Notes under the pieces: generated by a model | Seen by the model: only the letters and a program-made list of their open reading frames with translations | Database searches by the model: none | What the model was told of the DNA's origin: nothing | DNA from: Giardia intestinalis | Taxonomy: Eukaryota | Direction: 5' to 3' (one strand) | Assembly: GCA_000002435.2 (NCBI GenBank) | Contig: CM018790.1 | Length of the DNA: 64,000 nucleotides | Program-made: the position numbers and the translations under genes | In this document: positions 1 through 57,428 of the stretch, in pieces | Layout: each line of letters starts with the position of its first letter | How positions within the stretch are numbered: position 1 is the first letter of the stretch

Positions 1-9
1 GACATAGCC

Positions 10-1461
10 ATGCACCTTCTGTGTGAAGCCAATTTACTAAGAAAAGGCGGCCTTACTGCACTCATGACAGGGGCCATGCAAGATCTTGACGAAGTCGTCG
101 AGTTTCTTGCTCCATATCTACGAGACAAACGATCTCATGAGGGATATACTGCTCTCATGCTGGCCGCTCGACATGGCAACGCGAAAAGCGTAAAGATCTT
201 AATTAAAAAGACTGGCGAGTTGGGACTACAGGACAAACAGGGTAGATCAGCGCTAATGCTAGCCGCACACCACGGATCCAAGGACTGTGTAGAGCTCCTC
301 CTTAAGGGGGAAGGCCACCTCGTTGACTATAAAAATCGCAGAGCCTCAGCCTATACCACGAATGATGATCTGAGGCTTCTGTTGGGACTATTCAACAGGG
401 GGGATGTAGATACAGAGGGCCTAACGACTCTCATGCATGCAGCCAGGCTTACGCGCCCTGAGGTAGTTGAGCAGCTCATCAGCACACAACTAAAAGCACA
501 GGATTCCATTGGACGCACAGCTCTTATGTACGCATGCCTTTGTGGGCATGAGAGTTCGGCAGAAATGGTCCCCGTAGTCTCTATGCTGTCTGCAGAAGCA
601 GGATTATGTGACTCTCGTGGGCGTTCTGCGCTCTTCTACCTTATAGATAACCCCCACGTGCACGGCCTTACTGGAGAAGCAAGAGCCAATATCTCAAGCA
701 TACTACTGCTCCTAAGCTCTGAGCTCTCGTTGGTTGGGCCAAAGGGATTAAGGCCTCTCGATTATGCAATCACGCAGGAGAAGTATGGGGTAGGGGCTCT
801 CATCTATAACTCAGCTATGGCACTTCATACTGGAAATCTTGTCTCAATCCGGGCAATAATAGTATCAATGTTAAACACCCTTGCTTGCGGGGTAGATGAA
901 GAATACGAGGATAGCCCTATGAGGGAAGACGCAAGGGCACTGACAGACTTTATATCTTCTTCCTTTTGTGACGACGGGCCCTTTCTTGCAGAAGAGCTTG
1001 CCGATCAGATGGAGAGCATATGCAGAGATACAGAGCTGCCAGGATGTTGCATATGCCTGGAGCAAGAAGCTGAGGAGGTTATGGTGCCTTGCGGACACTT
1101 GACCTGTTGTAAGAGCTGCTTATCGAAGGTTCATAAGGTATGTCCAGTTTGTAGAGCCCCTGTTCAAACTACAATTGCTCCTCTCTTTCGGGAAGAAACA
1201 CAGCATAGTAAGGATTTGGGTGAATCTAGGCGCATGCCGCCGCGGTCTACAGTCATGTCAACATTGTCGCTTATTGCCCAAGAACCTCACCTTCAGGGCT
1301 CAGAACCACTTTCTCGGACATCTTCCCCATCCAGCGTCAGTAGTACGCGCTATAACTTAACCACAGGCTCACAGAGTCTACGCCTAGAAGTGGACTCCGA
1401 GATGGAACTGTCCGACTCCACTACTCGTTCTGAGTCGCCCTCAGTCGGCTGGCCTGCGTGA
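10..1461 (+). CDS. Ankyrin-repeat protein (Protein 21.1-like) with a C-terminal C3HC4 RING finger; possibly 5'-truncated by the window edge
   Basis: Repeated ...GxTALMxAA... ankyrin units. The C-terminus reads CCICLEQEAEEVMVPCGHLTCCKSCLSKVHKVCPVCR, which fits C-x2-C-x11-C-x-H-x3-C-x2-C-x7-C-x2-C (an IAP/MIB-type RING), followed by a Ser-rich tail. The frame is open back to nt 1, so the true start may lie upstream. Confidence 0.6.
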   Translation: MHLLCEANLLRKGGLTALMTGAMQDLDEVVEFLAPYLRDKRSHEGYTALMLAARHGNAKSVKILIKKTGELGLQDKQGRSALMLAAHHGSKDCVELLLKGEGHLVDYKNRRASAYTTNDDLRLLLGLFNRGDVDTEGLTTLMHAARLTRPEVVEQLISTQLKAQDSIGRTALMYACLCGHESSAEMVPVVSMLSAEAGLCDSRGRSALFYLIDNPHVHGLTGEARANISSILLLLSSELSLVGPKGLRPLDYAITQEKYGVGALIYNSAMALHTGNLVSIRAIIVSMLNTLACGVDEEYEDSPMREDARALTDFISSSFCDDGPFLAEELADQMESICRDTELPGCCICLEQEAEEVMVPCGHLTCCKSCLSKVHKVCPVCRAPVQTTIAPLFREETQHSKDLGESRRMPPRSTVMSTLSLIAQEPHLQGSEPLSRTSSPSSVSSTRYNLTTGSQSLRLEVDSEMELSDSTTRSESPSVGWPA

Positions 1462-1570
1462 CTACAAGGTTTCAACTGACATTGCGTTTAAGATTATAGG
1501 TAAGCAGCAAAATTTGAGAAAGGCGCAAAATTTTCATTTTTTGGGAAGATTAAAATCAAATTGGCACGAG

Positions 1571-3691
1571 ATGTCGAGCATCGAGCTTCCCGAAGGCTAC
1601 CGCTTCCAGACGACTTTGGCGGCAGGAGAGTACAGCATGCTCTTCCTGGCCATGGGAAACGACTACCAGGAGGTCGCTATCAAGAGCTTTGATTGCACGC
1701 AGATGGACGATGCACAAGTCTCGGAAATTCACCGCCAGGCCCTACTCCTGAAGTCCGTTAACCATCCGCTGGTACTCAAGGTATATGACGTCCAGATGAA
1801 CATTACGCGCACGCGCCTGCACGTGATCATGGAGCCCTTCTTCAAGACGCTTCAGAACCTCATCGACGAGTGTGAGAAGGCAGATCGCTCGCTCCTCAAC
1901 AACATCGTCTGCCAGGTGGCCTACCAGGTCATCAAGGGGCTCCACTATCTCTCCACCACCAACCATGTCGCGGTCAACGAGCAGGGACAGGAGTTCTCGC
2001 AGGACAAGATCTTCCACTCGTTTATCACACCGAACGACATTGTGTTCAACACCTCCGGAGTTGTGAAGCTTATGAACATCTTCCCCCTGGAGCATAGGAT
2101 GCTCTATGAAAAGGGCGACGCCAGCTTCCCGGGGCTCGCCTATGCGTCGCCTGAGTTTCTCAACAGGGAATACACCGAGTGCCCTGCCGATGTGTGGTCT
2201 GCGGGCGCGTGCATTTTCGCCATGGCTATGCGCAGGCCCCCGTTCAACTCTACCAACGTGGAGTCCCTAAGGGTGGAGGTCGAAGAAGGAAAGAAGGATG
2301 GCCTCGATATCAGCTTCAGCCGCGAGCTTGATGACATGCTCCAGCGCATGATGACGCCGGACCAGGGCTACAGGCCCACTGCCGGCGATCTCCTCAACGA
2401 CCCCTCAATCACCGAGGCGGCGTACGAGATCGAAGCGGGCGGCCTGCAAAACCCGTGGATGGCAATCGGCTTCTCCAGGCCGATCTCTCAGGCAGTGGCC
2501 CCTGTGTCCAACGACTCCCCGGTCCTCGCCCTGGATCCGAACAATGTGTACCCGATTGCCTTCGATGACAACAACCCATGGGAGAGGTACTGGCTTAACG
2601 CTCCTCGTCCAGATGCGACAGTCGACGCAGCCTCCTACACCAGGGGCACTATCGGCGAGGAAGTGGTTGCAAGGGTCCCGACACCACCGCCCGAGATGGA
2701 TATGTATGCCACGATGGATGATGCCTACAAGGGTGCCAACGATGAGTCCGCCTACTACGCCCCTGATAGCTATTATGGCAGTGCCCCTGCAGAGAGCGTC
2801 ATGGACGTCGCGCAAGTTGTGCGGGTGGAGACGCCTCCTCCAGAGCCTGATGCCTATGCTGACGCGGGCGCTCAGGGCAATGACTATAAGGTGGACGATG
2901 AGGCAGCGGCCTACGCACTCACCAGCTACTACGGTGATGCGCCTGCGGACAGCATCATGCTTACCGATGATGAGGTAGTCCACAGGATTCCCACACCACT
3001 GCCAGAAGGGGTGGCAGAGGTAGTTGTAAAGAGGAGCGCACCAGCCCCGGTCCCAACCCCAGCCCCGCTCATGGAAACGGCACCTGAGTCCAAGACTGTC
3101 ACTGCTCTTATGAACGCGGTTCGAACGGGCAAAAACGATGTTGTGCAGAGGCTCGTCGGAGAGCACTCCGGAGACATCGGATGGAAGACGCCCAACGAGA
3201 AGAAGACCGCCCTCATGGTCGCTGCGGATCTTGGGAACGCCGAGGCTGTCGAGTTGCTGGCGCCATGTGAGTGTGGTGAGGTAGACTCGGATGGCTGGCG
3301 AGCGATCGATTACGCCGCCCAAAACGGTAATGTCAGGGCCGTCAACGCTCTTCTTCAGTACGAGGGAGACATGCCTATCGTGCGCAAGGACGGATGCACG
3401 CCGCTCTTCCAGGCGGTGTTCTGGAACAAGCCGGACTGTGTGAGGGCACTCGCTCCTAAGTACGCCGGCGCAACGACGACAAGCCACTACTGGCAGGGGG
3501 AGGGCTTTACGGCCCTCATGGAGGCGGCTAAGTGCTGCCGCGTCGAGTGCGTTGAGATTCTGGCGCCCTATGAAGCGAAGATGACGGACAAAAAGGGTCA
3601 TACAGCACTCTACCACTGTGAGCACGCGTGGGACCATATTCTCGATGACGCCAAGAAGGAGGAATGCATCAGGATCCTCGAGAGGGCCTAG
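1571..3691 (+). CDS. NEK-like protein kinase-fold (predicted pseudokinase) fused to C-terminal ankyrin repeats
   Basis: The track ORF begins at TTG 1514; the first ATG is 1571 (MSSIELPEGYRF...) and has an A/T-rich leader. Kinase fold markers VAIK, ASPEF and DVWSAG are present. The catalytic loop reads HSFITPND rather than HRDLKPxN, and there is no DFG (LMNIFP). A Pro/Ala/Tyr-rich linker follows, then about 5 ankyrin repeats. Confidence 0.7.
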   Translation: MSSIELPEGYRFQTTLAAGEYSMLFLAMGNDYQEVAIKSFDCTQMDDAQVSEIHRQALLLKSVNHPLVLKVYDVQMNITRTRLHVIMEPFFKTLQNLIDECEKADRSLLNNIVCQVAYQVIKGLHYLSTTNHVAVNEQGQEFSQDKIFHSFITPNDIVFNTSGVVKLMNIFPLEHRMLYEKGDASFPGLAYASPEFLNREYTECPADVWSAGACIFAMAMRRPPFNSTNVESLRVEVEEGKKDGLDISFSRELDDMLQRMMTPDQGYRPTAGDLLNDPSITEAAYEIEAGGLQNPWMAIGFSRPISQAVAPVSNDSPVLALDPNNVYPIAFDDNNPWERYWLNAPRPDATVDAASYTRGTIGEEVVARVPTPPPEMDMYATMDDAYKGANDESAYYAPDSYYGSAPAESVMDVAQVVRVETPPPEPDAYADAGAQGNDYKVDDEAAAYALTSYYGDAPADSIMLTDDEVVHRIPTPLPEGVAEVVVKRSAPAPVPTPAPLMETAPESKTVTALMNAVRTGKNDVVQRLVGEHSGDIGWKTPNEKKTALMVAADLGNAEAVELLAPCECGEVDSDGWRAIDYAAQNGNVRAVNALLQYEGDMPIVRKDGCTPLFQAVFWNKPDCVRALAPKYAGATTTSHYWQGEGFTALMEAAKCCRVECVEILAPYEAKMTDKKGHTALYHCEHAWDHILDDAKKEECIRILERA

Positions 3692-3765
3692 GAGCTCTAG
3701 ACTCCCGGAGAGTAAAGCGCCTGCGTGGCTTTGTTAAAATTCACAAATTACAGAAAAAAGTGAGG

Positions 3766-4521
3766 ATGGACCCCATGGAGGTTGAGGTTATCCGTACGCC
3801 GTCCGACTCAGACATAGCTGGTTCCGGGGGGCCCGCGACTGCGGTGCCCATGAGCAGGGCCGCTCCAGCGCCCCAGGCCACAGGGGAAGATCCTCAGACG
3901 CTCCCGAGGCTGACCACGCTTGTCAACCCTGACGAAGGGGTGACGGAGCTCATGGTTGCTGCTCGCCGCGGAGACGAAGAGACCGTCATGGCACTCTTGG
4001 ACGAGCAGGCATGCCAGGTCGATGCACGAGGGCGTACAGCACTCATGTATGCCGCCGAGATGGGCAGATCATCCATTGTGGAGCTGCTTAAGGACCGCGA
4101 GGCAGGCATCCAGGACTCGTTTCTGTGGACGGCGCTCTTCTATGCGGCGCAAAACGGGCACCTCGTCTGCGTCTCCATGCTTGCACCTCTTGAAGCAAAG
4201 ATACAGCGCAAAGATGGCTGCACTGCCCTCTTCCTAGCAGTCTTTTGGAACCACATCGAGTGCGCCCGCATCCTCGCTCCTCTAGAGGCGGGGATCACAA
4301 CAAACTACAAACACTGGCAGGGCGGAGAGTACACGGCCCTCATGGAAGCAGCGAGGTGGGCCCGTTTGGAATGCATTGAACTTCTTGTCGAGCAGGAGCA
4401 CGGTATGAAGGACGCGTCTGGAAATAGGGCAATTGACTACGCCCGTGCTCCCTACGCACACGTCCCGGAAGATCGCAAAGAGCAGTCCATACAGCTTCTT
4501 GAGCAGTATGAGCGCGACTAG
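3766..4521 (+). CDS. Short ankyrin-repeat protein (Protein 21.1-like), a kinase-less paralogue of its neighbours
   Basis: ATG 3664 would overlap the upstream gene, so I chose ATG 3766 (MDPMEVEV...), which follows an A/T-rich tract. The ankyrin repeats and C-terminal module (FWN...HWQGGEYTALMEAARW...) are near-identical in pattern to the C-termini of genes 1571-3691, 4642-6189 and 6266-8599. Confidence 0.6.
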   Translation: MDPMEVEVIRTPSDSDIAGSGGPATAVPMSRAAPAPQATGEDPQTLPRLTTLVNPDEGVTELMVAARRGDEETVMALLDEQACQVDARGRTALMYAAEMGRSSIVELLKDREAGIQDSFLWTALFYAAQNGHLVCVSMLAPLEAKIQRKDGCTALFLAVFWNHIECARILAPLEAGITTNYKHWQGGEYTALMEAARWARLECIELLVEQEHGMKDASGNRAIDYARAPYAHVPEDRKEQSIQLLEQYERD

Positions 4522-4641
4522 ATCGCTGCCGGCGCATTCTCTAGCATCCCCTGCCGCTGAGTGAACATCTGTGACCACAGTAAAGCGAATTTAAAATGGA
4601 ATTTGGGGTTTTTGGTCAAACCGCTTAAAGCGGGCAATAAA

Positions 4642-6189
4642 ATGGACGGCCAGGCCTTTGCCATGGACTACCAGCCCGTTGCGGACATCTACTCCACCGG
4701 CGTGCACGAGATTGCCTCTGCACGCTCGACCAGGGATCCTAGCTCGAACATCGCTCTCTTCACCTGCTCCTATGGCGGGTTTGACGAGTCGGACCGAGCT
4801 ACCCTCAGGAGGCGCACGGGCGAGTACTGCGAGTTCAACAACTCGTCGACCGCTGTCCAGCCGGATCTTCTTAGCCCTTATCTGGCGCGTCTGTCCCACT
4901 ACTTCAACGACGATGCGTCTGCCCTCCTGACCATGGGTCTTCCTTACGGAGTTAACACCCTCTACGACGTGATGATGGCGAAGGCTCAGTCATACAGCAA
5001 CTTCACCGAGGAGGAGGTCTGGCGCGTGGTTGCGGCCCTCTGTGATGCCGCGCGCTTCATGCACAGCGAGGAGAAACCCGACACAGAACTGGAGGAGTTT
5101 GCGCACCTTGGCATCCACCCTGCCAACATCTTCCTGTACGCTGACGGCGCCCGTATCAGGCTTGGGTACCCGTACATCTGCCCCACAATGAGTTTCAAGA
5201 ACCCAGGCAATTACAGGGCCTTCCAGCAGCTCGGCGAGGCGCACTTCATGGCGCCGGAGTTCATCGAGGCTGGCGCCAAGGGCTCGTGTCCTTGTGACAT
5301 ATTCTCTATCGGTATGGTTGGGTATGCCATGATGACAAACTCGACTGCCTGGAGCGCGAGCAATATCAACGATCTGCAGGGAGAGGTGTACACTCGCGGG
5401 GCCATCAGCCTGCCATACGACGGCCGATACAGCCAGGACCTCGTTGATCTCATCAACTCTATGCTTTCCTTCGACTCGTCTGCCCGCCCCAAGGCAGAGC
5501 AGCTCTGTGCAAGCGGAAAGATTGCGCAGTGCATCGCGGAGAACGGAGACGCTCCCACGATGGCTCCTCCGAAGATGACCCGCGATATCGTCCAGCCACC
5601 CAGCGGGCTCACAGACCTCATGATCGCTGCCAGAGACGGCGACCTCAGTGGCGTCAGGAACAACCTCCACCAGGCAGGGTCCACAGACCAGTGCGGCCGC
5701 ACCGCTCTCATGTACGCGGCAGAGCACGGGTACGCCGATTGTGTCCGCGCGATCGTCTCTGACGCAATGGGCCACGGCGAGGTTCGCCTCCAGGACAAGT
5801 ACATGTGGACTGCAACCATGTATGCTGCCCAGAACGGACACGCCGATTGCGTCTCGCTTCTCCACGAGGAGTTCGGGATGCAGCGTCGCGACGGTGCCAC
5901 GGCGCTCTTCACTGCCGTCTTCTGGAACCGTTGCGAGTGCGTCAAGGTGCTCGCCCCGACTGAGGCCATCATCTCCACCAACGACAGGTACTGGCAGGGC
6001 GAGCGCTACACGGCTGCAATGGAGGCCGCAAGGTGGGGACGTCCCGAGTGTCTCCAGGAGCTTCTTGGGTACATCGACAAGTACACTACCGATAATAATG
6101 GGAACGATGTGGCGTACTATGCCATGCACCCATGGGAGCACGTGTCTGCAGATAAGAGCAGCAGAGTGCGTGAGGTCCTGAACCTGTAA
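4642..6189 (+). CDS. NEK-like degenerate kinase domain (pseudokinase) plus C-terminal ankyrin repeats
   Basis: The track start 4561 is GTG; the first ATG is 4642, preceded by an A/T-rich leader. Kinase-like remnants are HLGIHPANIF (catalytic loop with D replaced by G), FMAPEF (APE) and DIFSIGMVGY (DxWSxG). There is no VAIK lysine and no DFG. The C-terminal ankyrin module matches those of the neighbouring genes. Confidence 0.65.
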   Translation: MDGQAFAMDYQPVADIYSTGVHEIASARSTRDPSSNIALFTCSYGGFDESDRATLRRRTGEYCEFNNSSTAVQPDLLSPYLARLSHYFNDDASALLTMGLPYGVNTLYDVMMAKAQSYSNFTEEEVWRVVAALCDAARFMHSEEKPDTELEEFAHLGIHPANIFLYADGARIRLGYPYICPTMSFKNPGNYRAFQQLGEAHFMAPEFIEAGAKGSCPCDIFSIGMVGYAMMTNSTAWSASNINDLQGEVYTRGAISLPYDGRYSQDLVDLINSMLSFDSSARPKAEQLCASGKIAQCIAENGDAPTMAPPKMTRDIVQPPSGLTDLMIAARDGDLSGVRNNLHQAGSTDQCGRTALMYAAEHGYADCVRAIVSDAMGHGEVRLQDKYMWTATMYAAQNGHADCVSLLHEEFGMQRRDGATALFTAVFWNRCECVKVLAPTEAIISTNDRYWQGERYTAAMEAARWGRPECLQELLGYIDKYTTDNNGNDVAYYAMHPWEHVSADKSSRVREVLNL

Positions 6190-6203
6190 CGTGTCGACTC
6201 GTT

Positions 6204-6210
6204 AGTAAAT
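6204..6210 (+). promoter_or_regulatory. AGTAAAT polyadenylation signal (AGTRAAY) for gene 4642-6189
   Basis: 15 nt after the TAA stop. Confidence 0.45.
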
Positions 6211-6265
6211 CAATCTAAGCTTTACTGCGCAGTTAAAAAAGGCGGACTTTTTTAAAAAGAAATTA

Positions 6266-8599
6266 ATGGCTGCGGTTCAACTCCCTGCCCCCTACGTCTG
6301 GACAGCAGATATATGTAGGACGACCCTTGGATGCATTTGTCAGGCAATGGACACGAGTAACAACACCGAGGTGACGGTCAAGGTTGTGAATTACTCACAA
6401 CTCTCCCAGGAGGAGGCGAACGCCCTGGCCCACGAGGCGCGCGCCCTTTTATACCTCAATCACGATCACGTTGTCAAGACATATAACACAATCATAGCTC
6501 CCGAGACTTACACAATATACATTATCATGGAGCCGTGTCTAGGAACTTTGGGGACGGCAATACAGGTCATGAGCGCATACGGCCAGCAGATTCCCGAGGA
6601 GCACATCTGGTACATCGCTGCCGAGGTCGGGTCTGCTCTTAAGTATCTCCACGAGCCACATGAGAAGATGATGATTGACTGGTACTCTGCTGAAATCCCT
6701 ATAGGGCCTGTCGTTCATGGGTATCTCACGCCTTCCGACATCTTTATTTCTCGCGATGGAAAGTGCAAGGTTGGTGGAATAAGCCCGACGCAGTCGGCAT
6801 GGGAGATCCGCTCGGGCAACGCTGACCTGGGCAGACTTTTCCTCCAAGCCCCAGAGATCTTAGATATGCAGCCGAATATCACAGAGAAGGTCGATATCTG
6901 GTCGTTGGGGACGACTCTCTTCTTTATCGCTGCCTTTCAATCAGTTTGGATCTCCAGTGACTACGCTAGTATAGTCGCTGAGATAAAACACGGGAAGATC
7001 CAGCGCCTCCCCGATAGGTATTCCTGCGAGCTTGACGGCTTTATAGCTCGGTGTTTGCAGGTGGATCCGATGTACCGTCCATCCATTTTGGAGCTGCTTT
7101 TGGAGCCCCAGATCAACGACGTCATGCGTTCAGTGTGCGAGGGGTCTGTTCCGTCTATGCGCTATCTCCTTGGGCTATCTGAGGAGTCCGAGTCTCAGCC
7201 GCCCTCTATGCAGCCTGAGGAGCCAGCGGCACCTGCTGCGCCAATCCAAGAGCAGCCCGAAGAGCAACCTCAGAGAGACCCGATGCAGGTGGAGCGCATC
7301 TCTACACCCATGTCTGGGTCGCTCACCGCTGAGCCCAGGGCCCCTGAAAATCTTGAGCTGCCTCCTTTGCCGACAGACACTCCGACAGTTTCTACTCTTG
7401 AACCTTCCGAAATGGCTGTTTATGCACCTTCCGAGACTCGTACATTTGCCACTGAGCCGGCGACGTCTGACTTTGTAGATGCCGCTGAAAAGATTGTTAG
7501 CCTCATCGCTAAAGAGGCGTGTGCTCCCTCTGTTCCTGCGGAGGACATACGCGAGCCCGTCGACATGAATATCCTCCCAGCAAGCGTCACAGCGTCTATC
7601 CAGCCCGTTCCCGACCCCACTCCAGATGTTATAGCAGAGAAGATTGTCTCTGAAATCATTACTGCCGCCGATGATGATCTTTACAATAACACTGTGAGCG
7701 TTGTTGAAAGGCTGGAGGAGCCGGAGGACTCTGACGTGGGTGTAGTCTGTACAGCACTGCAGGATCCATCTCTCGTTGAGTCTGTGAAGAGACTTGAAGA
7801 GCCTGCTGTTGAGTACGATGTTCCTGTTGAGCCGGTCTACGCCACCGCTCCAAGCGCCTTTGCCAAGCCAGACACAGGCGTGGCCGAGGTCCTGAAGGAG
7901 GAGGAACCTGCCGTTGAAGCCAACACGTATGAGGCAGAGCCCGTTCTTGCTGCACCCATCCAGCCTGACGTGTATGCCAATAAGACCTTTGACTCCTCAG
8001 TTGTGCGCCCTGTAGAGGGTGTAACCCAGCTAATGCTTTGCGTTGAGAGAGGCGATCTTGAGGGTGCCAAGTATTATATCAATGAGGCAAGGTCCTCTGA
8101 CTCCTTCGGAAAGACTGCTCTGATGCGTGCCGCTGAACTTGGCAATTCGGAGCTAGTCGAGCTTCTTGTCGGATACGAGGCTTGCCTGCAGGACATTGAC
8201 GGATGGACTGCGCTCATGTTTGCCGTCCACAGCCGTAATACAGAGTGTGTTCGTCTCCTTGAGCCTCGTGAGCACGGGATGAGGCTCGCCAACGGACAAA
8301 CTGCACTGATGATGGCCTCCTTCTGGAACAATTCCGATGCCGTCTCCATACTAGCTTCGAGGGAATCGCGCGCGAGAACGACGGAGAGGTACTTTGAAGG
8401 CGAGGGATTCACAGCGCTCATGGAGGCTGCAAGGTGGGGACGCCACGATATTGTGAAGCTGCTTCTTCCGCACGAGGGCGACATGCGTGATTCCAGCGGG
8501 AAGACCGCACTTGATCACGCCCGCATTTCTGCCCATTCAGTTAGTCAGGTTGACAGAGACGAGTGCATTGCCATTCTCAGTGGTTCATCCGCCTGTTGA
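6266..8599 (+). CDS. NEK-like pseudokinase, then an acidic Pro/Glu-rich linker, then C-terminal ankyrin repeats
   Basis: ATG 6266 follows ttttttaaaaagaaattaATG. The kinase fold shows VTVKVV (β3 Lys), APEIL and DIWSLG. The catalytic loop is VHGYLTPSD with no Asp, and DFG is replaced by KVGGIS. A long acidic, low-complexity linker leads into ankyrin repeats. An AGTGAAT polyA signal lies 3 nt after the stop. Confidence 0.7.
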   Translation: MAAVQLPAPYVWTADICRTTLGCICQAMDTSNNTEVTVKVVNYSQLSQEEANALAHEARALLYLNHDHVVKTYNTIIAPETYTIYIIMEPCLGTLGTAIQVMSAYGQQIPEEHIWYIAAEVGSALKYLHEPHEKMMIDWYSAEIPIGPVVHGYLTPSDIFISRDGKCKVGGISPTQSAWEIRSGNADLGRLFLQAPEILDMQPNITEKVDIWSLGTTLFFIAAFQSVWISSDYASIVAEIKHGKIQRLPDRYSCELDGFIARCLQVDPMYRPSILELLLEPQINDVMRSVCEGSVPSMRYLLGLSEESESQPPSMQPEEPAAPAAPIQEQPEEQPQRDPMQVERISTPMSGSLTAEPRAPENLELPPLPTDTPTVSTLEPSEMAVYAPSETRTFATEPATSDFVDAAEKIVSLIAKEACAPSVPAEDIREPVDMNILPASVTASIQPVPDPTPDVIAEKIVSEIITAADDDLYNNTVSVVERLEEPEDSDVGVVCTALQDPSLVESVKRLEEPAVEYDVPVEPVYATAPSAFAKPDTGVAEVLKEEEPAVEANTYEAEPVLAAPIQPDVYANKTFDSSVVRPVEGVTQLMLCVERGDLEGAKYYINEARSSDSFGKTALMRAAELGNSELVELLVGYEACLQDIDGWTALMFAVHSRNTECVRLLEPREHGMRLANGQTALMMASFWNNSDAVSILASRESRARTTERYFEGEGFTALMEAARWGRHDIVKLLLPHEGDMRDSSGKTALDHARISAHSVSQVDRDECIAILSGSSAC

Positions 8600-8601
8600 T
8601 T

Positions 8602-8608
8602 AGTGAAT
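8602..8608 (+). promoter_or_regulatory. AGTGAAT polyadenylation signal for gene 6266-8599
   Basis: 3 nt after the TGA stop. Confidence 0.45.
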
Positions 8609-8644
8609 TTGCGCTGAACTGTACTTGAACTAAACCTTTTAAAA

Positions 8645-11335
8645 ATGGCGGCAGGGTTGAACGGCGAGGAGCGCGGCGACACCGCTCTGATTAGAGCAGC
8701 AAAGGCTAACAATCTCAGAGCAGTCATGGCCACCTTTCCAGAGGATGCGTGTAAAACTGACCACACAGGCCGCACGGCCCTCAGCTGGGCTACCGAGCGG
8801 GGATATGTTAATATTGTCCGGTACTTGATACACAAGGAGGCGAGGATTGTTGACAGGAAGGGTGTCACTGCGCTAATGATCGCCGTAAAGCGCCAGAACA
8901 TCTCCTGCGTCATGTCTCTTTACGCATACGAGTCCGGGTTCCAGGATAACCACGGCTGGTCTGCGCTTCACTGGGCAGTTTTCTATGGCTGCGCAAACAT
9001 TGTCCAGTACTTGGCTCCGTTGGAGGCTGGGCTCATCACTAACAATGGAACCACCGCCTTGATGTGCGCTGCCCAAAAGGGGTATGCAAACATCATCCCC
9101 TATCTTCTAGCCGCTGGAAGGGAGCTTAGAATGGTTGATAATTTGAAGAAGAGCGCACTCATCTATGCAGTAGAAGCAGGGCACGAGGATATAGTGCAGC
9201 TCTTAGCTGAGAAGGAGGCGGGAATAACTGACATGCTCGGACGATCGGCTCTCATGTATGCTGTGATAAATAAGAGGCCGGCGTGTGTCTCTATTCTTGC
9301 TCCGTATGAAGCGGGCATAGTTAGTAGTGAGGGGATGACTGCGCTTATGTATGCCGTGCAACAGCATGAGTGGCACATTGCGATGATTTTGGCCAAGCAA
9401 AAGGCAGAGCTAGGGAAGCAGGCTGCAAAGGAAGTTACTGCGCTTATGCTCCTGATGGACGCGAAGGATCCTCCGTCCGAAGTCGTGCTGGCACTTGGAG
9501 ACCGTCTGATCCCTTATGAAGCTAAGCTATCCGACTCTGCGGGCAATACAGCCCTTATGCGCGCAGCAATGCGGGGGGACATTAAGATGGTTGAAAGACT
9601 TGTCACCCACGAGGCGGGAATGCAGTCGTTGGCGGGGAAGACAGCTATGATGCTAGCCAGCCACGCTGGGCATGATGAGATTGTAAGATTACTTTCACCC
9701 ATAGAGAAGGGTCTCGTTGACGCCATGGGGCGGACTGCATTAATGTACGCCACAAGGGCAAACAATGATAACGTGATACGATACCTCATTCCGTTTGAAA
9801 GCAGAATGACTGATTTCTATGGCAAGACGGCGTTGATGTGCGCTGCAAAGAATAATTATATGCCGATTCTTAAGTTTCTTGCGTCAAAGGAGTGCAAGAT
9901 TAAAGATCACAAGGGCCGGACGGCTCTGATGCGGGCAGCCGCTAGCGGGCACATAGAGTCAGTAGCATTCTTGGCTCGGTATGAATCGCAACTTCAGTCG
10001 GAGAGTGGTTTAACTGCCTTGATGTTTGCTGCCGTCAATGGCCATTCAACCGTGGCGCGAGTTCTCGCCAAAACAGAGGCCGGGATGCGCGATTCTACAG
10101 GACGGACTGCCCTTCTCCTTTCGCTGGTTAACAATCATGAAAATGTCGCCCGTGCGCTTCTTGTATTCGAGCATCAACTTGCTGACGATCAAAAGCGGAC
10201 CGCCCTGATGTATTCTGCCCAAACAGCATTCGACTCGGTGACTCGGTCACTTATAGCCCTGGATAATCTGGCTAAAAGACAAGATGATGTAGGTCGCACG
10301 GCACTAATGTATGCTGTCACTTCTTCGCAGAGAAATGCTATCAGAGCGCTGCTTCCCAAGGAAAATTGCATGGTTGACAAGAACGGACGGACTGCACTCA
10401 TGTATGCCGCGCGTGCGTGCCTGTCTCCGGGGGTCCCGGGGCTCATCGAGAGTGAAGCAGGAATACACGATAACGACGGTCTAACGGCCCTCATGTATTG
10501 CTGTCTCAGCAAAAACTACTCGCTAGCGGATCTTTTGTTATCAACGGAGGTCTGCATGCGTGACAAGCGGGGACAGACAGCGCTCATGTATGCTGCCAAG
10601 GAGGGTTGCAAGGAGCTCGTCAATAAGTTGCTTCCACACGAAGCGGACATGCGTGACCATAGCGGGAAGACCTCATTGATCTATGCTGTTGAAAACGGGC
10701 ACTCTCATCTGGTATCGTCCCTGGCGTCGGAGAACAGGCTTTCCGATAAGCATCTTCAAACGCCATATGACTACGCAATGCGTCTGCGCTGCACAAAGTC
10801 TGTACAGTCTCTTGTCAGCATCTTAACAGATACGTCCACTCTCGTGCTAAGTGCCAGTGTTTGTTTACAATTCATCCGAAACCTTTCTCCGATTGTTTCG
10901 TATATGCTCTGGAAGAGTAAGAACACTCTCTATGCGATTCACGCACACACCTTATTGGATACCCTGATGTCATTTTTGTTTGATGATCTAGACATTAGTC
11001 TTCTGCGTTCTGAGGAAGAACAACGATGTGGTGAGAGCCTCATGCATCTCTGCACCATCAACGATAGTTTCATGGCCTCGTCGTCTTCGTTCTGGCTCCG
11101 CGGAGAAGCTCGGCGTCGGTACATGCACCGGACGCGGACTATGGAGATCTCTGATGCTTCACATGACTCCGTCTGCGCAGTGTGCTTAGACAACCATCCC
11201 AATGTCGTCTTTCTGCCATGCAGACACATGGTTGTCTGCAGTGCTTGCTTGACGTCTATGGAGCGTCACTGTCCTTATTGTCGAAAATATGTCTGTCGTC
11301 ACTTCACTATAAACGAAGAAGACATACTCTGCTAG
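8645..11335 (+). CDS. Large ankyrin-repeat protein (about 24 repeats, Protein 21.1-like) with a C-terminal C3HC4 RING finger
   Basis: Long array of GxTALMxAA ankyrin units. C-terminal CAVCLDNHPNVVFLPCRHMVVCSACLTSMERHCPYCRKYV fits C-x2-C-x11-C-x-H-x3-C-x2-C-x6-C-x2-C, the same RING type as gene 10-1461. Start context is ccttttaaaaATG. Confidence 0.75.
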   Translation: MAAGLNGEERGDTALIRAAKANNLRAVMATFPEDACKTDHTGRTALSWATERGYVNIVRYLIHKEARIVDRKGVTALMIAVKRQNISCVMSLYAYESGFQDNHGWSALHWAVFYGCANIVQYLAPLEAGLITNNGTTALMCAAQKGYANIIPYLLAAGRELRMVDNLKKSALIYAVEAGHEDIVQLLAEKEAGITDMLGRSALMYAVINKRPACVSILAPYEAGIVSSEGMTALMYAVQQHEWHIAMILAKQKAELGKQAAKEVTALMLLMDAKDPPSEVVLALGDRLIPYEAKLSDSAGNTALMRAAMRGDIKMVERLVTHEAGMQSLAGKTAMMLASHAGHDEIVRLLSPIEKGLVDAMGRTALMYATRANNDNVIRYLIPFESRMTDFYGKTALMCAAKNNYMPILKFLASKECKIKDHKGRTALMRAAASGHIESVAFLARYESQLQSESGLTALMFAAVNGHSTVARVLAKTEAGMRDSTGRTALLLSLVNNHENVARALLVFEHQLADDQKRTALMYSAQTAFDSVTRSLIALDNLAKRQDDVGRTALMYAVTSSQRNAIRALLPKENCMVDKNGRTALMYAARACLSPGVPGLIESEAGIHDNDGLTALMYCCLSKNYSLADLLLSTEVCMRDKRGQTALMYAAKEGCKELVNKLLPHEADMRDHSGKTSLIYAVENGHSHLVSSLASENRLSDKHLQTPYDYAMRLRCTKSVQSLVSILTDTSTLVLSASVCLQFIRNLSPIVSYMLWKSKNTLYAIHAHTLLDTLMSFLFDDLDISLLRSEEEQRCGESLMHLCTINDSFMASSSSFWLRGEARRRYMHRTRTMEISDASHDSVCAVCLDNHPNVVFLPCRHMVVCSACLTSMERHCPYCRKYVCRHFTINEEDILC

Positions 11336-11424
11336 TGGGTATCCTATTATTCGATTTTGTTCTTCGGACAGGCATGCTATGATGTCGCAAATATTGGGTC
11401 CCCAACGGTAATGAACGGTCTTCT

Positions 11425-11450
11425 CTGCTGGTCAATCCTGCTGGTCAATC
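11425..11450. repeat. Tandem duplication of the 13-mer CTGCTGGTCAATC
   Basis: Copies at 11425-11437 and 11438-11450, about 90 nt downstream of the stop of gene 8645-11335. Confidence 0.7.
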
Positions 11451-11984
11451 AATTCTATAAATGTTGAGTGACAGATTGACACAAGCTATAATTTGTTTTA
11501 GTTTGTTGAATACACACAAACACTTATAAAGAGTAAATCGCTCTTAGGCTTTTTCCTTCTCTTTGCTACACCCCTGATGCAGCAACGGAGTCTATCGAAT
11601 ATGTTAGTTAATTTTTATAACTTAGTTGATTGAGTAACCTAAGCCGTCACTGTCCGGACTTCTTCTGTGCACAAGTAAATAAGGTGTGCAGACTCACTAT
11701 TTCAGGAGACACATGCAGATGACTAGTTTCTCGAAAGGCCCTGCAATAAGCCATAAAATCAAAGCGTTTCATTACTCTAAGAGCAATCTGCCCTCTCTCG
11801 GACATATCTACAGGGACAGGTACTGTCACTTATGTCACTATACTAGTAAGCAGGTGGCACCCGGAACCAGGAAGCACCGGTAGGCAAGCAAGTAAAGAGA
11901 TGATCTTCTTTTCTTCCGAAGCAAAAAGACATTGGGGCAAATAATTGTTATCGGTTGTTCTAGTCACATTCTGAGTCCTGCTCG

Positions 11985-14684: not shown

Positions 14685-14698
14685 AGGAAATTTAAAAA

Positions 14699-15463
14699 AT
14701 GTCGGAAAGAGAGGGGTTTTTGGCTTCTATAACCCTCAACATACGCGCAGTCATGTACGAAGCCGGGGCACTCCAACAAGTGGAGCTTGAAAGCGAAGTT
14801 CTGCGCCGCCTCGGGCTTTATGAAGATACTGCCAAACACGCGACGGTCAAGCGGCGCATATACGATGCACTCTCCACGTTCATAGCGCTGGAGATCATTC
14901 AGAAGGTTAATAAGATGCTTTATTGGAACGGATTTCCTCACTATGGGCCCAAGCCAGATCTACCCGGCTCAGGCAGTGCTGAGGTTCAGTCAAAGTTAGA
15001 TTCTTCCGCCATTGTCACCGAGGATTCCTCTCGCACACTAAACTCGGAGACGAATGAGCATGACCCCGTTGCTGCAGGCATGGATGCTATCGTCCCTACT
15101 GCCGCCGAGGAAGGAGATGACAATGCCTCTGTCGAGGAGCTAGAAGCACAGATTGCAGAGCTGGAAGGACGGATAAGTGTGCTGAGCCAGCAACATGCAT
15201 ACTACACATTTTTCAACAGCCAGGCGCTGCTGTCACCGCAATGGGACCAAGGGGCTCCGCCAGTGCCTCCACCAGTTGCACTGCCCTTCACCGTTATCGC
15301 GGTTCCGTCAGAAGCAGACGCCGTGATCTTTAGCAACCAAAATCACACGCGCATCTCCATTGACGCCAGTATGCAGAACATTACGATCTTATCAGATGAT
15401 CAGATCGTGCAAGCCTTAATACAAAACACAGACAAAAGCATGAAGCCTCCATCTCCTTTCTGA
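14699..15463 (+). CDS. DP/E2F-family winged-helix transcription factor-like protein
   Basis: VKRRIYDALSTFIALEIIQKVNKMLYWNGFP matches the DP-1 DNA-binding core ([30 protein letters not shown]). A heptad/coiled-coil segment (LEAQIAELEGRISVLSQQ) follows, as in DP dimerisation domains. Start context is gaaatttaaaaaATG. Confidence 0.5.
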   Translation: MSEREGFLASITLNIRAVMYEAGALQQVELESEVLRRLGLYEDTAKHATVKRRIYDALSTFIALEIIQKVNKMLYWNGFPHYGPKPDLPGSGSAEVQSKLDSSAIVTEDSSRTLNSETNEHDPVAAGMDAIVPTAAEEGDDNASVEELEAQIAELEGRISVLSQQHAYYTFFNSQALLSPQWDQGAPPVPPPVALPFTVIAVPSEADAVIFSNQNHTRISIDASMQNITILSDDQIVQALIQNTDKSMKPPSPF

Positions 15464-15552
15464 ACCCTCTCCTTAGTTTACAGGATGTGTGGGCTGTGTG
15501 ATGGAGTGAGGAATCATCGTCAAAAAAAAGAGAAAAGGAGAAAAATGAAAAA

Positions 15553-15915
15553 ATGCCTGAAGCGGTCGCAACATCCACCCCTTGCCTTGGACCGTACAGC
15601 CCGGCTGTGAAGACCGGGAACCTTGTCTTCGTGTCAGGGCAGCTCGGCATAAAGGACGGCGAGCTTGCCGACGGTGTTCAGGCCCAGACACGCCTCTGCC
15701 TCGAGAATCTGAAGGGCGTTCTCGAGGCTGCCGGCACAACCATGAAGAACGTCGTCAAGTGCCAAGTGTACTTGAAGAACATGGATGACTTCGCCAAGGT
15801 CAACGAGGTCTACGCCGAGTTCTTCACCGAGTCAAAACCTGCGCGGATCTGCGTTGAGGTGGCCCGCCTTCCCAAGGACGCTTTAGTGGAAATCGACGCG
15901 ATAGCCGAACAGTGA
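15553..15915 (+). CDS. RidA/YjgF/L-PSP family protein (reactive-intermediate imine deaminase)
   Basis: The 120-aa sequence carries the hallmark [19 protein letters not shown]...[20 protein letters not shown]. The leader is A-rich, and an AGTGAAT polyA signal lies 13 nt after the stop. Confidence 0.85.
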
Positions 15916-15927
15916 GACTGTGAGATT

Positions 15928-15934
15928 AGTGAAT
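15928..15934 (+). promoter_or_regulatory. AGTGAAT polyadenylation signal for the RidA gene
   Basis: 13 nt after the TGA stop. Confidence 0.45.
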
Positions 15935-15970
15935 AAAACTGGGATTTGTGTTCCTTTAGCTTGCGCCACG

Positions 15971-16002
15971 AAGTCGTGAAGTCACAAAGTCGTGAAGTCA
16001 CA
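15971..16002. repeat. Perfect tandem duplication of the 16-mer AAGTCGTGAAGTCACA
   Basis: Unit 1 spans 15971-15986 and unit 2 spans 15987-16002. Each unit contains the near-palindrome GTGAagTCAC. The repeat lies in a convergent 3' intergenic region. Confidence 0.8.
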
Positions 16003-57291: not shown

Positions 57292-57428
57292 GGTTTTAGA
57301 AAAAACTCTAAAAGCATGGGCTCCAACCCCGCAAACACAGCGCAAGTGTGATGTGTGCCAGTACCAAGCAAGGATGACCATAGGAGCCTGAGCAATCCCT
57401 TTGATAGATGCATTCACTCACAAAACTA

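What the first reader, a model, noticed from the sequence alone, without database searches (positions are those of the whole stretch)
10..11335. Tandem same-strand array of six ankyrin-repeat paralogues: two Ank-RING genes bracketing three pseudokinase-Ank genes and one Ank-only copy
All six genes lie on the + strand with 45-80 bp spacers. Genes 2-5 share a near-identical C-terminal module (…(L/A)F.AVFWN...C(V/A)..LAP.E......(Y/H)WQGE(G/R)(F/Y)TA(L/A)MEAA(R/K)W…). This points to recent local duplication followed by domain shuffling. The genes at the two ends have the same Ank-plus-C-terminal-RING architecture. Such a cluster is a natural unit for lineage-specific expansion of the NEK/21.1 families and for tracing how the kinase domain was gained or lost. 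The ends of the array might work as E3 ligases and the internal genes as inactive scaffolds for one shared process, but that is speculation.
Basis: partly seen in the sequence, partly recalled or inferred. Interest (0 to 1): 0.55.

Follow-up and report, generated by a model that had tools for sequence, protein, structure and literature searches.

The report
Ancient Giardia pseudokinase-ankyrin gene array
Six neighbouring ankyrin-repeat genes of the gut parasite Giardia are an old, conserved product of local gene duplication; the inner ones are already published as inactive-kinase scaffolds at the parasite's endocytic organelles, so the finding is real but largely already described.

Summary
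The window is Giardia intestinalis WB. The six + strand genes exist with the stated architectures. Corrections:
- Gene 1 is cut by the window edge. The full protein is 665 aa.
- Spacers are 45-120 bp, not 45-80 bp.
- The shared C-terminal module of genes 2-5 is 38-49% identical, not near-identical.

The module is a six-repeat ankyrin domain with an extended loop. Genes 2, 3, 4 and 5 are GL50803_15411, 15410, 15409 and 11390. The three kinases are listed as 'Dead Nek' in Manning 2011.

The four modules form one clade (91% bootstrap) against unlinked Giardia NEK/21.1 proteins, so local duplication is supported. It is not recent:
- Genes 1-5 are collinear in G. muris, with one-to-one reciprocal best hits.
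- All six genes are collinear in two divergent G. intestinalis-complex lineages.
- No long DNA repeats remain.
- dN/dS is 0.02-0.3.

Gene 6 is absent from the G. muris array. Its RING is not sister to that of gene 1.

Published work places 15411, 15409 and 11390 together at peripheral endocytic compartments, in clathrin/AP2/alpha-giardin interactomes. 15410 is found with them in an extracellular-vesicle proteome. This supports the 'shared process' idea for the inner genes. E3 activity of the end genes is untested. The genes are already known; the only increment is linking their adjacency, shared domain and co-localisation.

The parts
1..1461 (+). Gene 1, 3' part (C-terminal 486 codons): TALM-ankyrin + C-terminal RING protein, annotated 'Ankyrin repeat protein 2' (XP_001707034.1). 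The full gene is 665 aa and starts 537 nt upstream of window position 1.
   Evidence: Its G. muris positional orthologue is m1 (603 aa, reciprocal best hit).
1045..1152 (+). Gene 1 RING finger (C3HC4, all eight zinc ligands present; residues 528-563 of the full protein). It is followed by a Ser/Thr-rich tail of about 100 aa.
   Evidence: Pfam zf-C3HC4_3 scores 43.3 bits against a cutoff of 27. Ligand pattern. Best PDB matches are cIAP2, cIAP1, XIAP and MYLIP RINGs.
1571..3691 (+). Gene 2 = GL50803_15411, 'Kinase, NEK', 706 aa. Pseudokinase domain at 1571-2470, disordered acidic/Pro-rich linker at 2471-3049, shared six-ANK module at 3050-3691.
   Evidence: 'Dead Nek - missing D166, D184'. HRD is replaced by HSF and DFG by NIF; the VAIK lysine is kept. 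Literature.
2531..2593 (+). Conserved island in the gene 2 linker, LDPNNVYPIAFDDNNPWERYW. The core DPxx(V/I)YPIxFDxxNPW is invariant from WB to G. muris. It is a candidate short linear binding motif.
   Evidence: Four-way alignment. Its function is inferred only.
3766..4521 (+). Gene 3 = GL50803_15410, 'Ankyrin repeat protein 1', 251 aa (formerly annotated as a 285-aa 'Ser/Thr protein kinase' starting at 3664). Disordered N-terminus of 54 aa, then the shared six-ANK module (3928-4521). No kinase domain.
   Evidence: The AF2 model has pLDDT above 90 over residues 55-250, six helix-turn-helix repeats, and an extended loop at 175-190. The module is 94-95% identical in divergent lineages, with dN/dS about 0.02.
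4642..6189 (+). Gene 4 = GL50803_15409, 'Kinase, NEK', 515 aa. Highly degenerate pseudokinase domain at 4642-5550, joined directly to the shared module at 5551-6189.
   Evidence: 'Dead Nek - missing K72, D166, D184'. The G. muris orthologue is P0345 (41% identity in the kinase domain, 46% in the module). Localisation.
5692..5799 (+). Residues 351-386 of gene 4, which form ANK repeat 2 of the shared module. Manning et al. 2011 deleted this segment and it altered the localisation of Orf_15409.
   Evidence: Coordinates counted from the sequence. Experiment quoted.
6266..8599 (+). Gene 5 = GL50803_11390, 'Kinase, NEK', 777 aa. Pseudokinase domain at 6266-7165, long fast-evolving acidic/Pro-rich linker at 7166-7975, shared module at 7976-8599 (the most divergent copy).
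   Evidence: 'Dead Nek - missing D166, D184'. HRD is replaced by HGY and DFG by GIS. Literature.
8645..11335 (+). Gene 6: an 896-aa protein with about 20 TALM-ankyrin repeats and a C-terminal RING. It is adjacent in all G. intestinalis-complex loci examined but absent from the G. muris array. It is not a bearer of the shared module.
   Evidence: Its best match to the modules is 105 bits or less.
11174..11281 (+). Gene 6 RING finger (C3HC4, eight ligands; residues 844-879), 17 residues from the C-terminus, as in IAP-type RINGs.
   Evidence: One search gives cIAP1 RING at E = 3e-10, plus XIAP, MUL1 and MIB1 RING3.

Best explanation
This is an ancient tandem-duplication array in Giardia intestinalis WB, already annotated and held under purifying selection. 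Its core is four adjacent paralogues: GL50803_15411, 15410, 15409 and 11390. They share one specific C-terminal six-repeat ankyrin domain.

Shown here:
- The four domains descend from one ancestor. The (15410, 15409) pair and, less firmly, the (15411, 11390) pair are sisters.
- The duplications, the loss of catalytic residues and the kinase-less state of 15410 all predate the split between G. muris and G. intestinalis.
- An Ank-RING gene (gene 1) has travelled with the array since then. The second Ank-RING gene (gene 6) is a later or independent neighbour.

From published experiments:
- The three pseudokinases localise to the peripheral vacuoles / peripheral endocytic compartments (PV/PECs).
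- They co-purify there with clathrin-AP2-PXD3 assemblies, alpha-giardins and unconventionally secreted proteins.

Inferred mechanism: the shared ankyrin domain is the common docking unit that places all four proteins at the same cortical assemblies. Its conserved aromatic residues and extended T..WQGE loop would contribute to this. The variable N-terminal parts (dead kinase domain, with or without a disordered linker carrying conserved short motifs) would recruit different clients. The kinase-less 15410 would occupy the same docking site without a client arm. The RING proteins are probably E3 ligases, but their connection to the inner four is unknown.
For: Identity and annotation.

Architecture.

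Pseudokinase status. The same substitutions are visible in the G. muris orthologues.

Common origin of the modules:
- Mutual best hits.
- 91% bootstrap clade against nine unlinked Giardia TA-ankyrin segments, with (g2,m2) 100%, (g4,m4) 81% and (g3,g4,m3,m4) 86%.
- The comparators were verified as Giardia NEK/21.1 proteins.
- Two other ankyrin genes in the same window score only 47-89 bits.

Kinase domains: the g2 and g5 domains, with their orthologues, cluster at 76%.

Age: G. muris synteny and reciprocal best hits; six-gene collinearity in two divergent lineages; no long or high-identity DNA repeats.

Selection: dN/dS is 0.02-0.17 for pseudokinase domains and 0.02-0.16 for modules.

Shared place and process:
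- Balmer 2023 (PMC9928461): 15411, 15409 and 11390 were all pulled down with PV/PEC-associated secretion substrates and all localise to PV/PECs.
- Zumthor 2016 (PMC4954726): 15411 lies in the clathrin interactome through the AP2 large subunits.
- Cernikova 2020 (PMC7058353): reciprocal strong interaction between 15411 and PXD3.
- Cross-link between alpha-1 giardin and 15411.
- EV proteome peptide scores are 4638, 4107, 2425 and 1142 for 15410, 15409, 15411 and 11390, against 163 or less for the other listed NEKs.
- All three pseudokinases are among the 31 non-core kinases differentially expressed between trophozoite and cyst.

The module matters for placement: Manning's deletion of residues 351-386 of 15409, which is repeat 2 of the module, changed its localisation.
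Against: - Sampling limit. The comparison with unlinked paralogues used a sample, not the full Giardia proteome. That sample was the top 150 of an exhaustive search ranked by summed score, plus two length-limited searches. An unlinked gene of 500-800 aa carrying the same module could have been missed.
- One exception to the mutual-best-hit pattern: the g4 module scores 111 bits to an unlinked P15 NEK and 107 bits to g2.
- The kinase domain of gene 4 cannot be placed with those of genes 2 and 5 (14-38% support). Whole-gene duplication is therefore not shown for it.
- dS is saturated, so the dN/dS values are rough.
- No experiment shows that the module alone targets a protein to PV/PECs, that the four proteins bind one partner, or that 15410 is at PV/PECs.
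- Manning saw mostly cytoplasmic signal for 15409, and the repeat deletion increased rather than abolished membrane association.
- Abundant ankyrin proteins can be sticky in co-IPs.
- The papers I read do not report interactions among the four proteins. The relevant tables were not available.
Confidence: 0.6

Rival explanations
1. The array would be a recent, lineage-specific local expansion of the NEK/21.1 families, with ongoing domain shuffling. It would resemble the fast-turnover Nek-GL4 clusters described by Manning et al.
For: The genes are adjacent, share a strand and share a module. Giardia does have rapidly turning-over NEK clusters. One draft assemblage contig carries a truncated gene 4-like copy fused to foreign sequence.
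Against: Module identity is only 38-49% and kinase identity 24-27%. No high-identity DNA repeats remain. There is one-to-one collinear orthology in G. muris and in two divergent lineages. The genes are classed Nek-Unclassified, and 15411 and 11390 are 1:1:1 orthologues, not GL4. Purifying selection is strong.
Confidence: 0.03
2. The array is only a relic of ancient duplication, with no present functional coupling. The four proteins have diverged to separate roles. Adjacency persists because nothing has broken it. Their joint appearance in PV/PEC interactomes and EV proteomes reflects abundance and the general stickiness of ankyrin proteins.
For: The paralogues are very divergent. Each spacer has its own A/T-rich stretch before the ATG, and four of five have an AGT(A/G)AA polyadenylation-like signal after the stop. 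This fits independent monocistronic expression (the Giardia signal consensus is from my own knowledge). Manning saw diffuse cytoplasmic signal for 15409. Same-strand runs are common here: the + strand run continues through five more unrelated genes.
Against: Three of the four NEKs chosen independently from PV/PEC-substrate pull-downs are exactly the array members. The fourth, unlinked one (16824) was cytosolic. All four array proteins far outscore the other NEKs in the EV proteome. All three pseudokinases are stage-regulated. The module is highly conserved.
Confidence: 0.25
3. All six genes form one functional unit. The flanking Ank-RING proteins are E3 ubiquitin ligases that recognise the inner scaffolds or their clients through ankyrin-ankyrin or shared-partner contacts. 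They would control the turnover of these proteins at PV/PECs.
For: Both RINGs have all eight zinc ligands and match IAP/XIAP/MYLIP/MIB1-type active RINGs at E around 1e-10. Gene 1 has stayed next to the array since before the G. muris split. Both genes are under purifying selection.
Against: Gene 6 is not in the G. muris array. Genes 1 and 6 are not each other's closest Ank-RING relatives. Ank + C-terminal RING is a common Giardia architecture. I found no report of either protein in PV/PEC interactomes, but I could not map their GL50803 identifiers, so this was not really tested.
Confidence: 0.1

Closest known systems
Giardia NEK pseudokinase / Protein 21.1 TALM-ankyrin superfamily (Manning et al. 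2011, PMC3218828; re-annotated as 'Int-ncPsK' in PMC12538575)
   Same: Genes 2, 4 and 5 are listed there by sequence as Nek-Unclassified 'Dead Nek'. They have an N-terminal kinase-like domain followed by TALM-type ankyrin repeats. Genes 1, 3 and 6 are the kinase-less, 21.1-like form, two of them with the C-terminal RING the paper also mentions.
   Different: Nothing differs in kind. What the papers I read do not state is that 15411, 15410, 15409 and 11390 are adjacent, that they share one monophyletic six-repeat domain, and that they are collinear in G. muris.
Gl15411 and the PV/PEC clathrin-AP2-PXD3 / alpha-giardin / unconventional-secretion interactome (PMC4954726, PMC7058353, PMC9928461)
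   Same: Gene 2 is Gl15411 itself. Genes 4 and 5 are the other two PV/PEC-localised NEKs of Balmer 2023. All are treated there as catalytically inactive scaffolds.
   Different: Those studies treat them as separate NEKs. The words adjacent, tandem, chromosome and synteny do not occur in Balmer 2023. Gene 3 (15410) and the RING genes were not studied there.
Integrin-linked kinase (ILK): ankyrin repeats plus a pseudokinase domain acting as a membrane-proximal scaffold (from my own knowledge)
   Same: It works alike in principle. A dead kinase fold and an ankyrin domain in one chain serve as an adaptor at a cortical assembly.
   Different: The domain order is reversed (ANK is N-terminal in ILK). 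No specific sequence relationship was tested or is expected. The partners are different.
Ankyrin-RING E3 ligases with IAP-type C-terminal RINGs, e.g. Mind bomb (MIB1) and plant XBAT proteins. The XBAT comparison is from my own knowledge.
   Same: Ankyrin repeats followed by a C-terminal zf-C3HC4_3 RING. The RINGs of genes 1 and 6 match cIAP1/2, XIAP and MYLIP; gene 6 also matches MIB1 RING3.
   Different: The ankyrin repeats are Giardia TALM type. There are no MIB/HERC2 or ZZ domains. Gene 1 carries a tail of about 100 aa after the RING. E3 activity has not been tested.

Membership tests
Giardia NEK family (Nek-Unclassified, pseudokinase) | Protein-kinase fold with closest similarity to NEK kinases | tested here: met
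   Pfam Pkinase scores 76.8, 60.4 and 85.6 bits against a cutoff of 31.7. The best PDB hit is NEK2 for genes 2 and 5. Gene 4 is weaker: CDPK1 then NEK7, at E around 1e-7.
Giardia NEK family (Nek-Unclassified, pseudokinase) | Listed in the curated Giardia kinome | tested here: met
   There are exact N-terminal sequence matches to GL50803_15411, 15409 and 11390 in Manning Table S1.
Active protein kinase | Catalytic triad K72 / D166 / D184 (VAIK Lys, HRD Asp, DFG Asp) | tested here: not met
   Gene 2: K kept, HRD replaced by HSF, DFG replaced by NIF. Gene 5: K kept, HGY, GIS. Gene 4: no VAIK Lys, HLG, no DFG. This agrees with the 'Dead Nek' labels.
Protein 21.1 / TALM-ankyrin proteins | Arrays of ankyrin repeats that start with the TALM motif, with no kinase domain | tested here: met
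   Genes 1, 3 and 6 hit Ank families only, with 4 to 17 TALM-like motifs. Gene 3 is modelled as six ANK repeats.
RING-type E3 ubiquitin ligase (zf-C3HC4_3, IAP-like) | Complete C3HC4 zinc-ligand set and a family-level match | tested here: met
   Eight ligands are present in both genes. Pfam scores 43.3 bits against a cutoff of 27. cIAP/XIAP RINGs match at E of 1e-10 to 1e-7.
RING-type E3 ubiquitin ligase (zf-C3HC4_3, IAP-like) | E2 binding and ubiquitin-transfer activity | not testable with these tools
   This needs an in vitro ubiquitination assay.
Local tandem-duplication array | Members are adjacent, share a strand, and are closer to each other than to unlinked family members | tested here: met
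   Met for genes 2-5, with the sampling caveat. Not met for the pair gene 1 / gene 6.
Recent / lineage-specific expansion (Nek-GL4-like turnover) | High identity between copies, and presence/absence differences between strains or species | tested here: not met
   Identity is 38-49% at the protein level. No long DNA repeats remain. The array is collinear in G. muris and in two divergent lineages.
PV/PEC-associated scaffold set | Localisation at peripheral endocytic compartments and co-purification with clathrin/AP2/alpha-giardins | not testable with these tools
   Literature only. It is reported for 15411, 15409 and 11390. For 15410 there is only EV proteome co-detection. I found no data for genes 1 and 6.

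The most novel reading that the evidence does not exclude
The shared six-repeat ankyrin domain would be a dedicated, Giardia-wide docking domain for the cortical clathrin/AP2/annexin assemblies of the peripheral endocytic compartments. Its features are the conserved W121/F160-W161-N162/W184-Q185-G186/W198 set (gene 3 numbering) and the extended loop between repeats 4 and 5.

Under this reading the four-gene array is an ancient co-functional 'PEC scaffold' cluster. Three members deliver different dead-kinase or linker client arms. The kinase-less member (15410) acts as a competitor or regulator for the same site. The syntenic Ank-RING neighbour (gene 1) may control their turnover.
Probability: 0.22. 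Interest if true: 0.5.

Novelty: already known. Interest (0 to 1): 0.25.

Why it matters
The genes, their pseudokinase status and the PV/PEC association of three of them are already published, so the finding opens no new category.

The modest added value is a synthesis that the papers I read do not make. The three PV/PEC pseudokinases and one ankyrin-only protein are neighbouring paralogues. They share one specific ankyrin domain. That arrangement has been kept since before G. muris and G. intestinalis diverged.

This gives Giardia cell biologists a direct, testable hypothesis: the shared domain is the targeting or docking unit. It also suggests genetic redundancy that should be considered in knock-down experiments on endocytosis and unconventional secretion of virulence factors.

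Tried and rejected
1. The exhaustive representative search with the gene 3 module ranked hits by summed score. Its top 150 were long multi-repeat ankyrin proteins, and the array members themselves did not appear. It served only as a pool of unlinked comparators: 102 of 149 have at least 5 TALM motifs, and 10 of 10 checked are Giardia proteins.

2. The search for homologous proteins returned only hits up to about 1.75 times the query length and scored a capped candidate set. could not list genes 2, 4 and 5. still missed the clusters of genes 2 and 5. These searches are therefore not an exhaustive paralogue census.

3. A search of Manning's Table S1 for the module signature gave nothing, because the stored sequences are truncated. 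The supplement tables of Balmer 2023 are not held, so interactions among the four proteins could not be read.

4. The first G. muris hit (P0070, locus L007) is a different same-strand ankyrin array, not the syntenic locus. The true orthologous locus is L008.

5. P0343 and P0344 looked like evidence of domain shuffling: a gene 4 kinase domain joined to a non-ankyrin C-terminus. In locus L009 the CCT gene abuts mid-gene 3, and gene 4 breaks off after its first repeat into 29-35% GC DNA with bacterial-type genes. I treat this as a probable chimeric contig, or as an insertion into a partial second copy. I do not count it as evidence about the array.

6. Tandem and direct DNA repeat searches found no recent duplication or gene conversion.

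7. I could not find the GL50803 identifiers of genes 1 and 6. Their presence in published interactomes therefore remains unchecked.

Full report
**What the sequence is.** The first 18.6 kb of the window are base-for-base identical to a Giardia assembly contig. Five of the six proteins are exact matches to Giardia intestinalis WB reference proteins:
- XP_001707034, 'Ankyrin repeat protein 2'
- XP_001707032, 'Kinase, NEK'
- XP_001707031, 'Ankyrin repeat protein 1'
- XP_001707030, 'Kinase, NEK'
- XP_001707029, 'Kinase, NEK'

By exact sequence match in Manning et al. 2011 Table S1, gene 2 is GL50803_15411, gene 4 is GL50803_15409 and gene 5 is GL50803_11390. Gene 3 is GL50803_15410, matched by its former name and its former length of 285 aa.

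**Check of the observation.** Six consecutive + strand ORFs are present. Pfam confirms the stated architectures:
- Genes 1 and 6: Ank + zf-C3HC4_3.
- Genes 2, 4 and 5: Pkinase + Ank.
- Gene 3: Ank only.

Three details need correction:
- Gene 1 is cut by the window edge. No stop precedes position 10. On the longer contig the gene starts 537 nt upstream of window position 1 and encodes 665 aa.
- With the annotated ATG starts, the spacers are 109, 74, 120, 76 and 45 bp.
- The shared C-terminal module of genes 2-5 is real and collinear, but it is 37.6-49.0% identical over about 205 aa, with 42 invariant columns. That is not near-identical. Gene 5 departs from the quoted pattern.

The kinase domains are only 24-27% identical to one another.

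All three are pseudokinases:
- Gene 2 keeps the VAIK lysine but has HSF for HRD and NIF for DFG.
- Gene 5 keeps the lysine but has HGY and GIS.
- Gene 4 lacks all three catalytic residues.

These are exactly the 'Dead Nek' calls of Manning et al..

**What the module is.** An AlphaFold2 model of gene 3, built on ten related sequences, has a disordered N-terminus (residues 1-54). It is followed by six helix-turn-helix ankyrin repeats at pLDDT above 90. The loop between repeats 4 and 5 (residues 175-190) is unusually long and carries the conserved T..(Y/H)WQGE signature. Several conserved positions are not ordinary ankyrin framework residues: W121, F160-W161-N162, W184-Q185-G186 and W198 in gene 3 numbering.

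I compared each module with 391 other proteins gathered by three database searches. Most of them are Giardia-type proteins:
- 102 of the 149 proteins from the exhaustive search have five or more exact TALM motifs.
- All ten that I looked up are G. intestinalis or G. muris NEK, 21.1 or 'ankyrin repeat' proteins on other contigs.

Each module's best non-orthologous hits are the other three array members, at 107-175 bits. Unlinked proteins reach 118 bits at most. There is one exception: the gene 4 module scores 111 bits to a P15 NEK and 107 bits to gene 2. Only array members and their orthologues carry the FWN / WQG / EAARW / YAAQNG signature. Two other ankyrin genes 40-50 kb away in the same window score 47-89 bits and lack the signature.

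In a neighbour-joining tree, the four modules and their four G. muris orthologues form a clade with 91% bootstrap against nine unlinked Giardia segments. Inside it, (g2,m2) has 100% support, (g4,m4) 81%, and (g3,g4,m3,m4) 86%.

For the kinase domains, genes 2 and 5 with their orthologues cluster at 76% among 18 unlinked NEK domains. The very degenerate domain of gene 4 cannot be placed.

Local duplication is therefore supported for genes 2-5. The ankyrin-only gene 3 is sister to the gene 4 lineage, which means either loss of the kinase part or duplication of the module alone. The caveat is that the comparison set is a sample, not the full proteome.

**Is it recent? No.** In G. muris the locus reads as follows, all on one strand:
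- Rer1
- Ank-RING (603 aa)
- NEK-Ank (708 aa)
- a 216-aa ankyrin protein
- NEK-Ank (478 aa)
- NEK-Ank (811 aa)

Each of these five array genes is the reciprocal best hit of genes 1-5 in order. The G. muris proteins show the same substitutions at the catalytic motifs (HSL, HLA, HNY; sequences). The pseudokinase state and the kinase-less gene 3 are therefore ancestral.

Gene 6 has no counterpart there; a SET-domain gene follows instead. Two divergent lineages of the G. intestinalis complex, whose gene 4 proteins are 83% and 74% identical to WB, have all six genes in the same order between Rer1 and the DEAD-box helicase.

No tandem or long direct DNA repeats remain. The longest are 84-106 nt at 60-71% identity, one family being exactly the WQGE...MEAARW stretch of the four genes.

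Nei-Gojobori estimates against the two divergent lineages give dN/dS of:
- 0.02-0.17 for the pseudokinase domains
- 0.02-0.16 for the modules
- 0.10-0.30 for the linkers

Synonymous sites are saturated, so these values are only rough. The gene 3 module is 94-95% identical across these lineages.

**The two ends.** Both RINGs have all eight zinc ligands. Their best matches among solved structures are active IAP-type RINGs: cIAP1/2, XIAP and MYLIP for both, plus MUL1 and MIB1 RING3 for gene 6. However, the two RING tails resemble each other at only 42 bits. Each scores higher to several unlinked Giardia Ank-RING proteins: up to 63 bits for gene 6 and 50 bits for gene 1. Ankyrin plus C-terminal RING is a recurrent Giardia architecture. 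The bracketing symmetry is therefore architectural, not genealogical. Only gene 1 belongs to the unit conserved with G. muris.

**What is known about function (literature).**
- Zumthor et al. 2016 found Gl15411 in the clathrin heavy-chain interactome at the peripheral vacuole-plasma membrane interface. It was linked through the two large AP2 subunits and localised in the cell cortex (PMC4954726).
- Cernikova et al. 2020 found a reciprocal strong interaction between Gl15411 and the PX-domain protein GlPXD3 (PMC7058353).
- Balmer et al. 2023 selected four catalytically inactive NEKs from pull-downs of PV/PEC-associated, unconventionally secreted proteins. The NEKs were 15411, 15409, 11390 and 16824. 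The three array members localised to PV/PECs, and the unlinked 16824 was cytosolic (PMC9928461). The words adjacent, tandem, chromosome and synteny do not occur in that paper.
- A 2026 preprint reports cross-links between alpha-1 giardin and 15411.
- In an extracellular-vesicle proteome, 15410, 15409, 15411 and 11390 have peptide scores of 4638, 4107, 2425 and 1142. The other listed NEKs score 163 or less (PMC13257884).
- A 2025 kinome re-annotation lists A8BH24, A8BH19 and A8BH18 (genes 2, 4 and 5) among the 31 non-core kinases that are differentially expressed between trophozoite and cyst (PMC12538575).
- Manning et al. deleted residues 351-386 of Orf_15409 and saw a changed localisation. 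By my count this segment is repeat 2 of the shared module (window 5692-5799).

**Most likely mechanism.**
- Shown: four adjacent, anciently duplicated genes share one conserved six-repeat ankyrin domain. Three of them have dead kinase domains, and two of those have long disordered linkers.
- From the literature: the three pseudokinases sit at the same organelle and in overlapping interactomes.
- Inferred: the shared ankyrin domain is the common docking unit for the cortical clathrin/AP2/alpha-giardin assemblies, and the N-terminal parts differ in what they bring. Gene 3, which has only the domain, would occupy the same site without a client arm.

One further inference concerns the gene 2 linker. 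It contains an island, DPxx(V/I)YPIxFDxxNPW, that is invariant from WB to G. muris within otherwise fast-evolving sequence. From my own knowledge it resembles the aromatic-acidic motifs that bind adaptor appendage domains. That would fit the reported AP2 link, but it is untested.

I put 0.6 on this overall picture. The evolutionary part is near certain; the docking-domain part is roughly even odds.

**Rivals.**
- A recent lineage-specific expansion is refuted (0.03).
- A mere relic array with no present coupling remains possible (0.25). Each gene appears to have its own A/T-rich start region and polyadenylation-like signal. Ankyrin proteins can also be sticky in pull-downs.
- A six-gene unit with the RING proteins acting on the scaffolds has no direct support (0.1).

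**Novelty and score.** The genes are annotated, and their family, pseudokinase status and the localisation of three of them are published. The array itself is ordinary for a Giardia NEK/21.1 locus; a second same-strand ankyrin array turned up by accident in G. muris. The only increment is the link between adjacency, a shared monophyletic domain, deep synteny and co-localisation. That link yields a clean experimental hypothesis. I rate the finding as already known, with interest 0.25.

Noticed in passing
L009:1-7000 (GCA_000498735.1 AHHH01000176.1); proteins P0343 and P0344: A gene 4-like pseudokinase (81% identical to WB; 88% to the intact copy in L010) breaks off after its first ankyrin repeat. 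It continues into a PDDEXK_2-type ORF in 29-35% GC DNA flanked by bacterial-type genes (SLT, guanylate kinase, ExoVII small subunit). Upstream, the CCT gene abuts mid-gene 3. Two sequences from different sources share the same junction peptide but are only about 73% identical overall. This is either a chimeric assembly or a real insertion into a partial second copy. Manning lists 15409 as 1:0:2.
   Followed up: partly
L007:1-16870 (G. muris CM016925.1): This is a different same-strand run of ankyrin genes in G. muris: a 1195-aa Ank-RING protein, then 658, 1095, 389 (Ank-RING), 682 and 807 aa. It is not syntenic with the window. It shows that such arrays with interspersed RING members recur in Giardia genomes.
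   Followed up: no
window 2471-3049 (gene 2 linker), 7166-7975 (gene 5 linker), 3766-3830 (gene 3 N-terminus): A short motif, V-x-R-(V/I/L)-x-T-P, recurs three times in the gene 2 linker (VARVPTPPPE, VVRVETPPPE, VHRIPTPLPE) and three times in its G. muris orthologue. It also occurs once in the gene 5 linker (VERISTP) and once at the gene 3 N-terminus (VIRTPS). It may be a proline-directed phosphosite or a binding motif.
   Followed up: partly
window 3664-3765 and L002/L003 7400-8256: The older 285-aa model of gene 3 starts at 3664 and overlaps the end of gene 2 by 28 nt. The current model starts at 3766. In two other isolates the gene callers split this region into 62-aa and 223-aa ORFs, which points to an indel in the poorly conserved, disordered N-terminus.
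   Followed up: no
window 1-16000 and upstream (L001:2475-19650): The + strand run is longer than the array. Rer1, the six ankyrin genes, a 54-aa ORF, a DEAD-box/HHH helicase, an E2F/DP-like gene and an L-PSP gene all lie on the + strand, making eleven in a row.
   Followed up: no
window 2405-3637 (-), 4990-6141 (-), 5211-5981 (-): Long antisense ORFs of 410, 383 and 256 aa lie opposite genes 2 and 4. They coincide with the GC-rich stretch (0.59 GC at 2-6 kb, against 0.45-0.53 over most of the rest of the window). They are most likely stop-poor antisense frames, not genes.
   Followed up: no
window 53413-57381 (-) and 62312-63166 (+): Two further TALM-ankyrin genes lie in the window (1322 aa and 284 aa). 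They lack the FWN / WQGE / MEAARW signature and match the modules at only 47-89 bits. They served as nearby negative controls.
   Followed up: partly
window 8645-11335: The exact 896-aa gene 6 protein was reported as not in the protein collection. However, the identical DNA is present on contig L001, with an 896-aa gene called there. This is probably a gap in the index rather than biology.
   Followed up: no
L008:5358-13902 (G. muris): The intergenic spacers in the G. muris copy of the array are only 8-29 bp, against 45-120 bp in WB. This fits the more compact G. muris genome.
   Followed up: no
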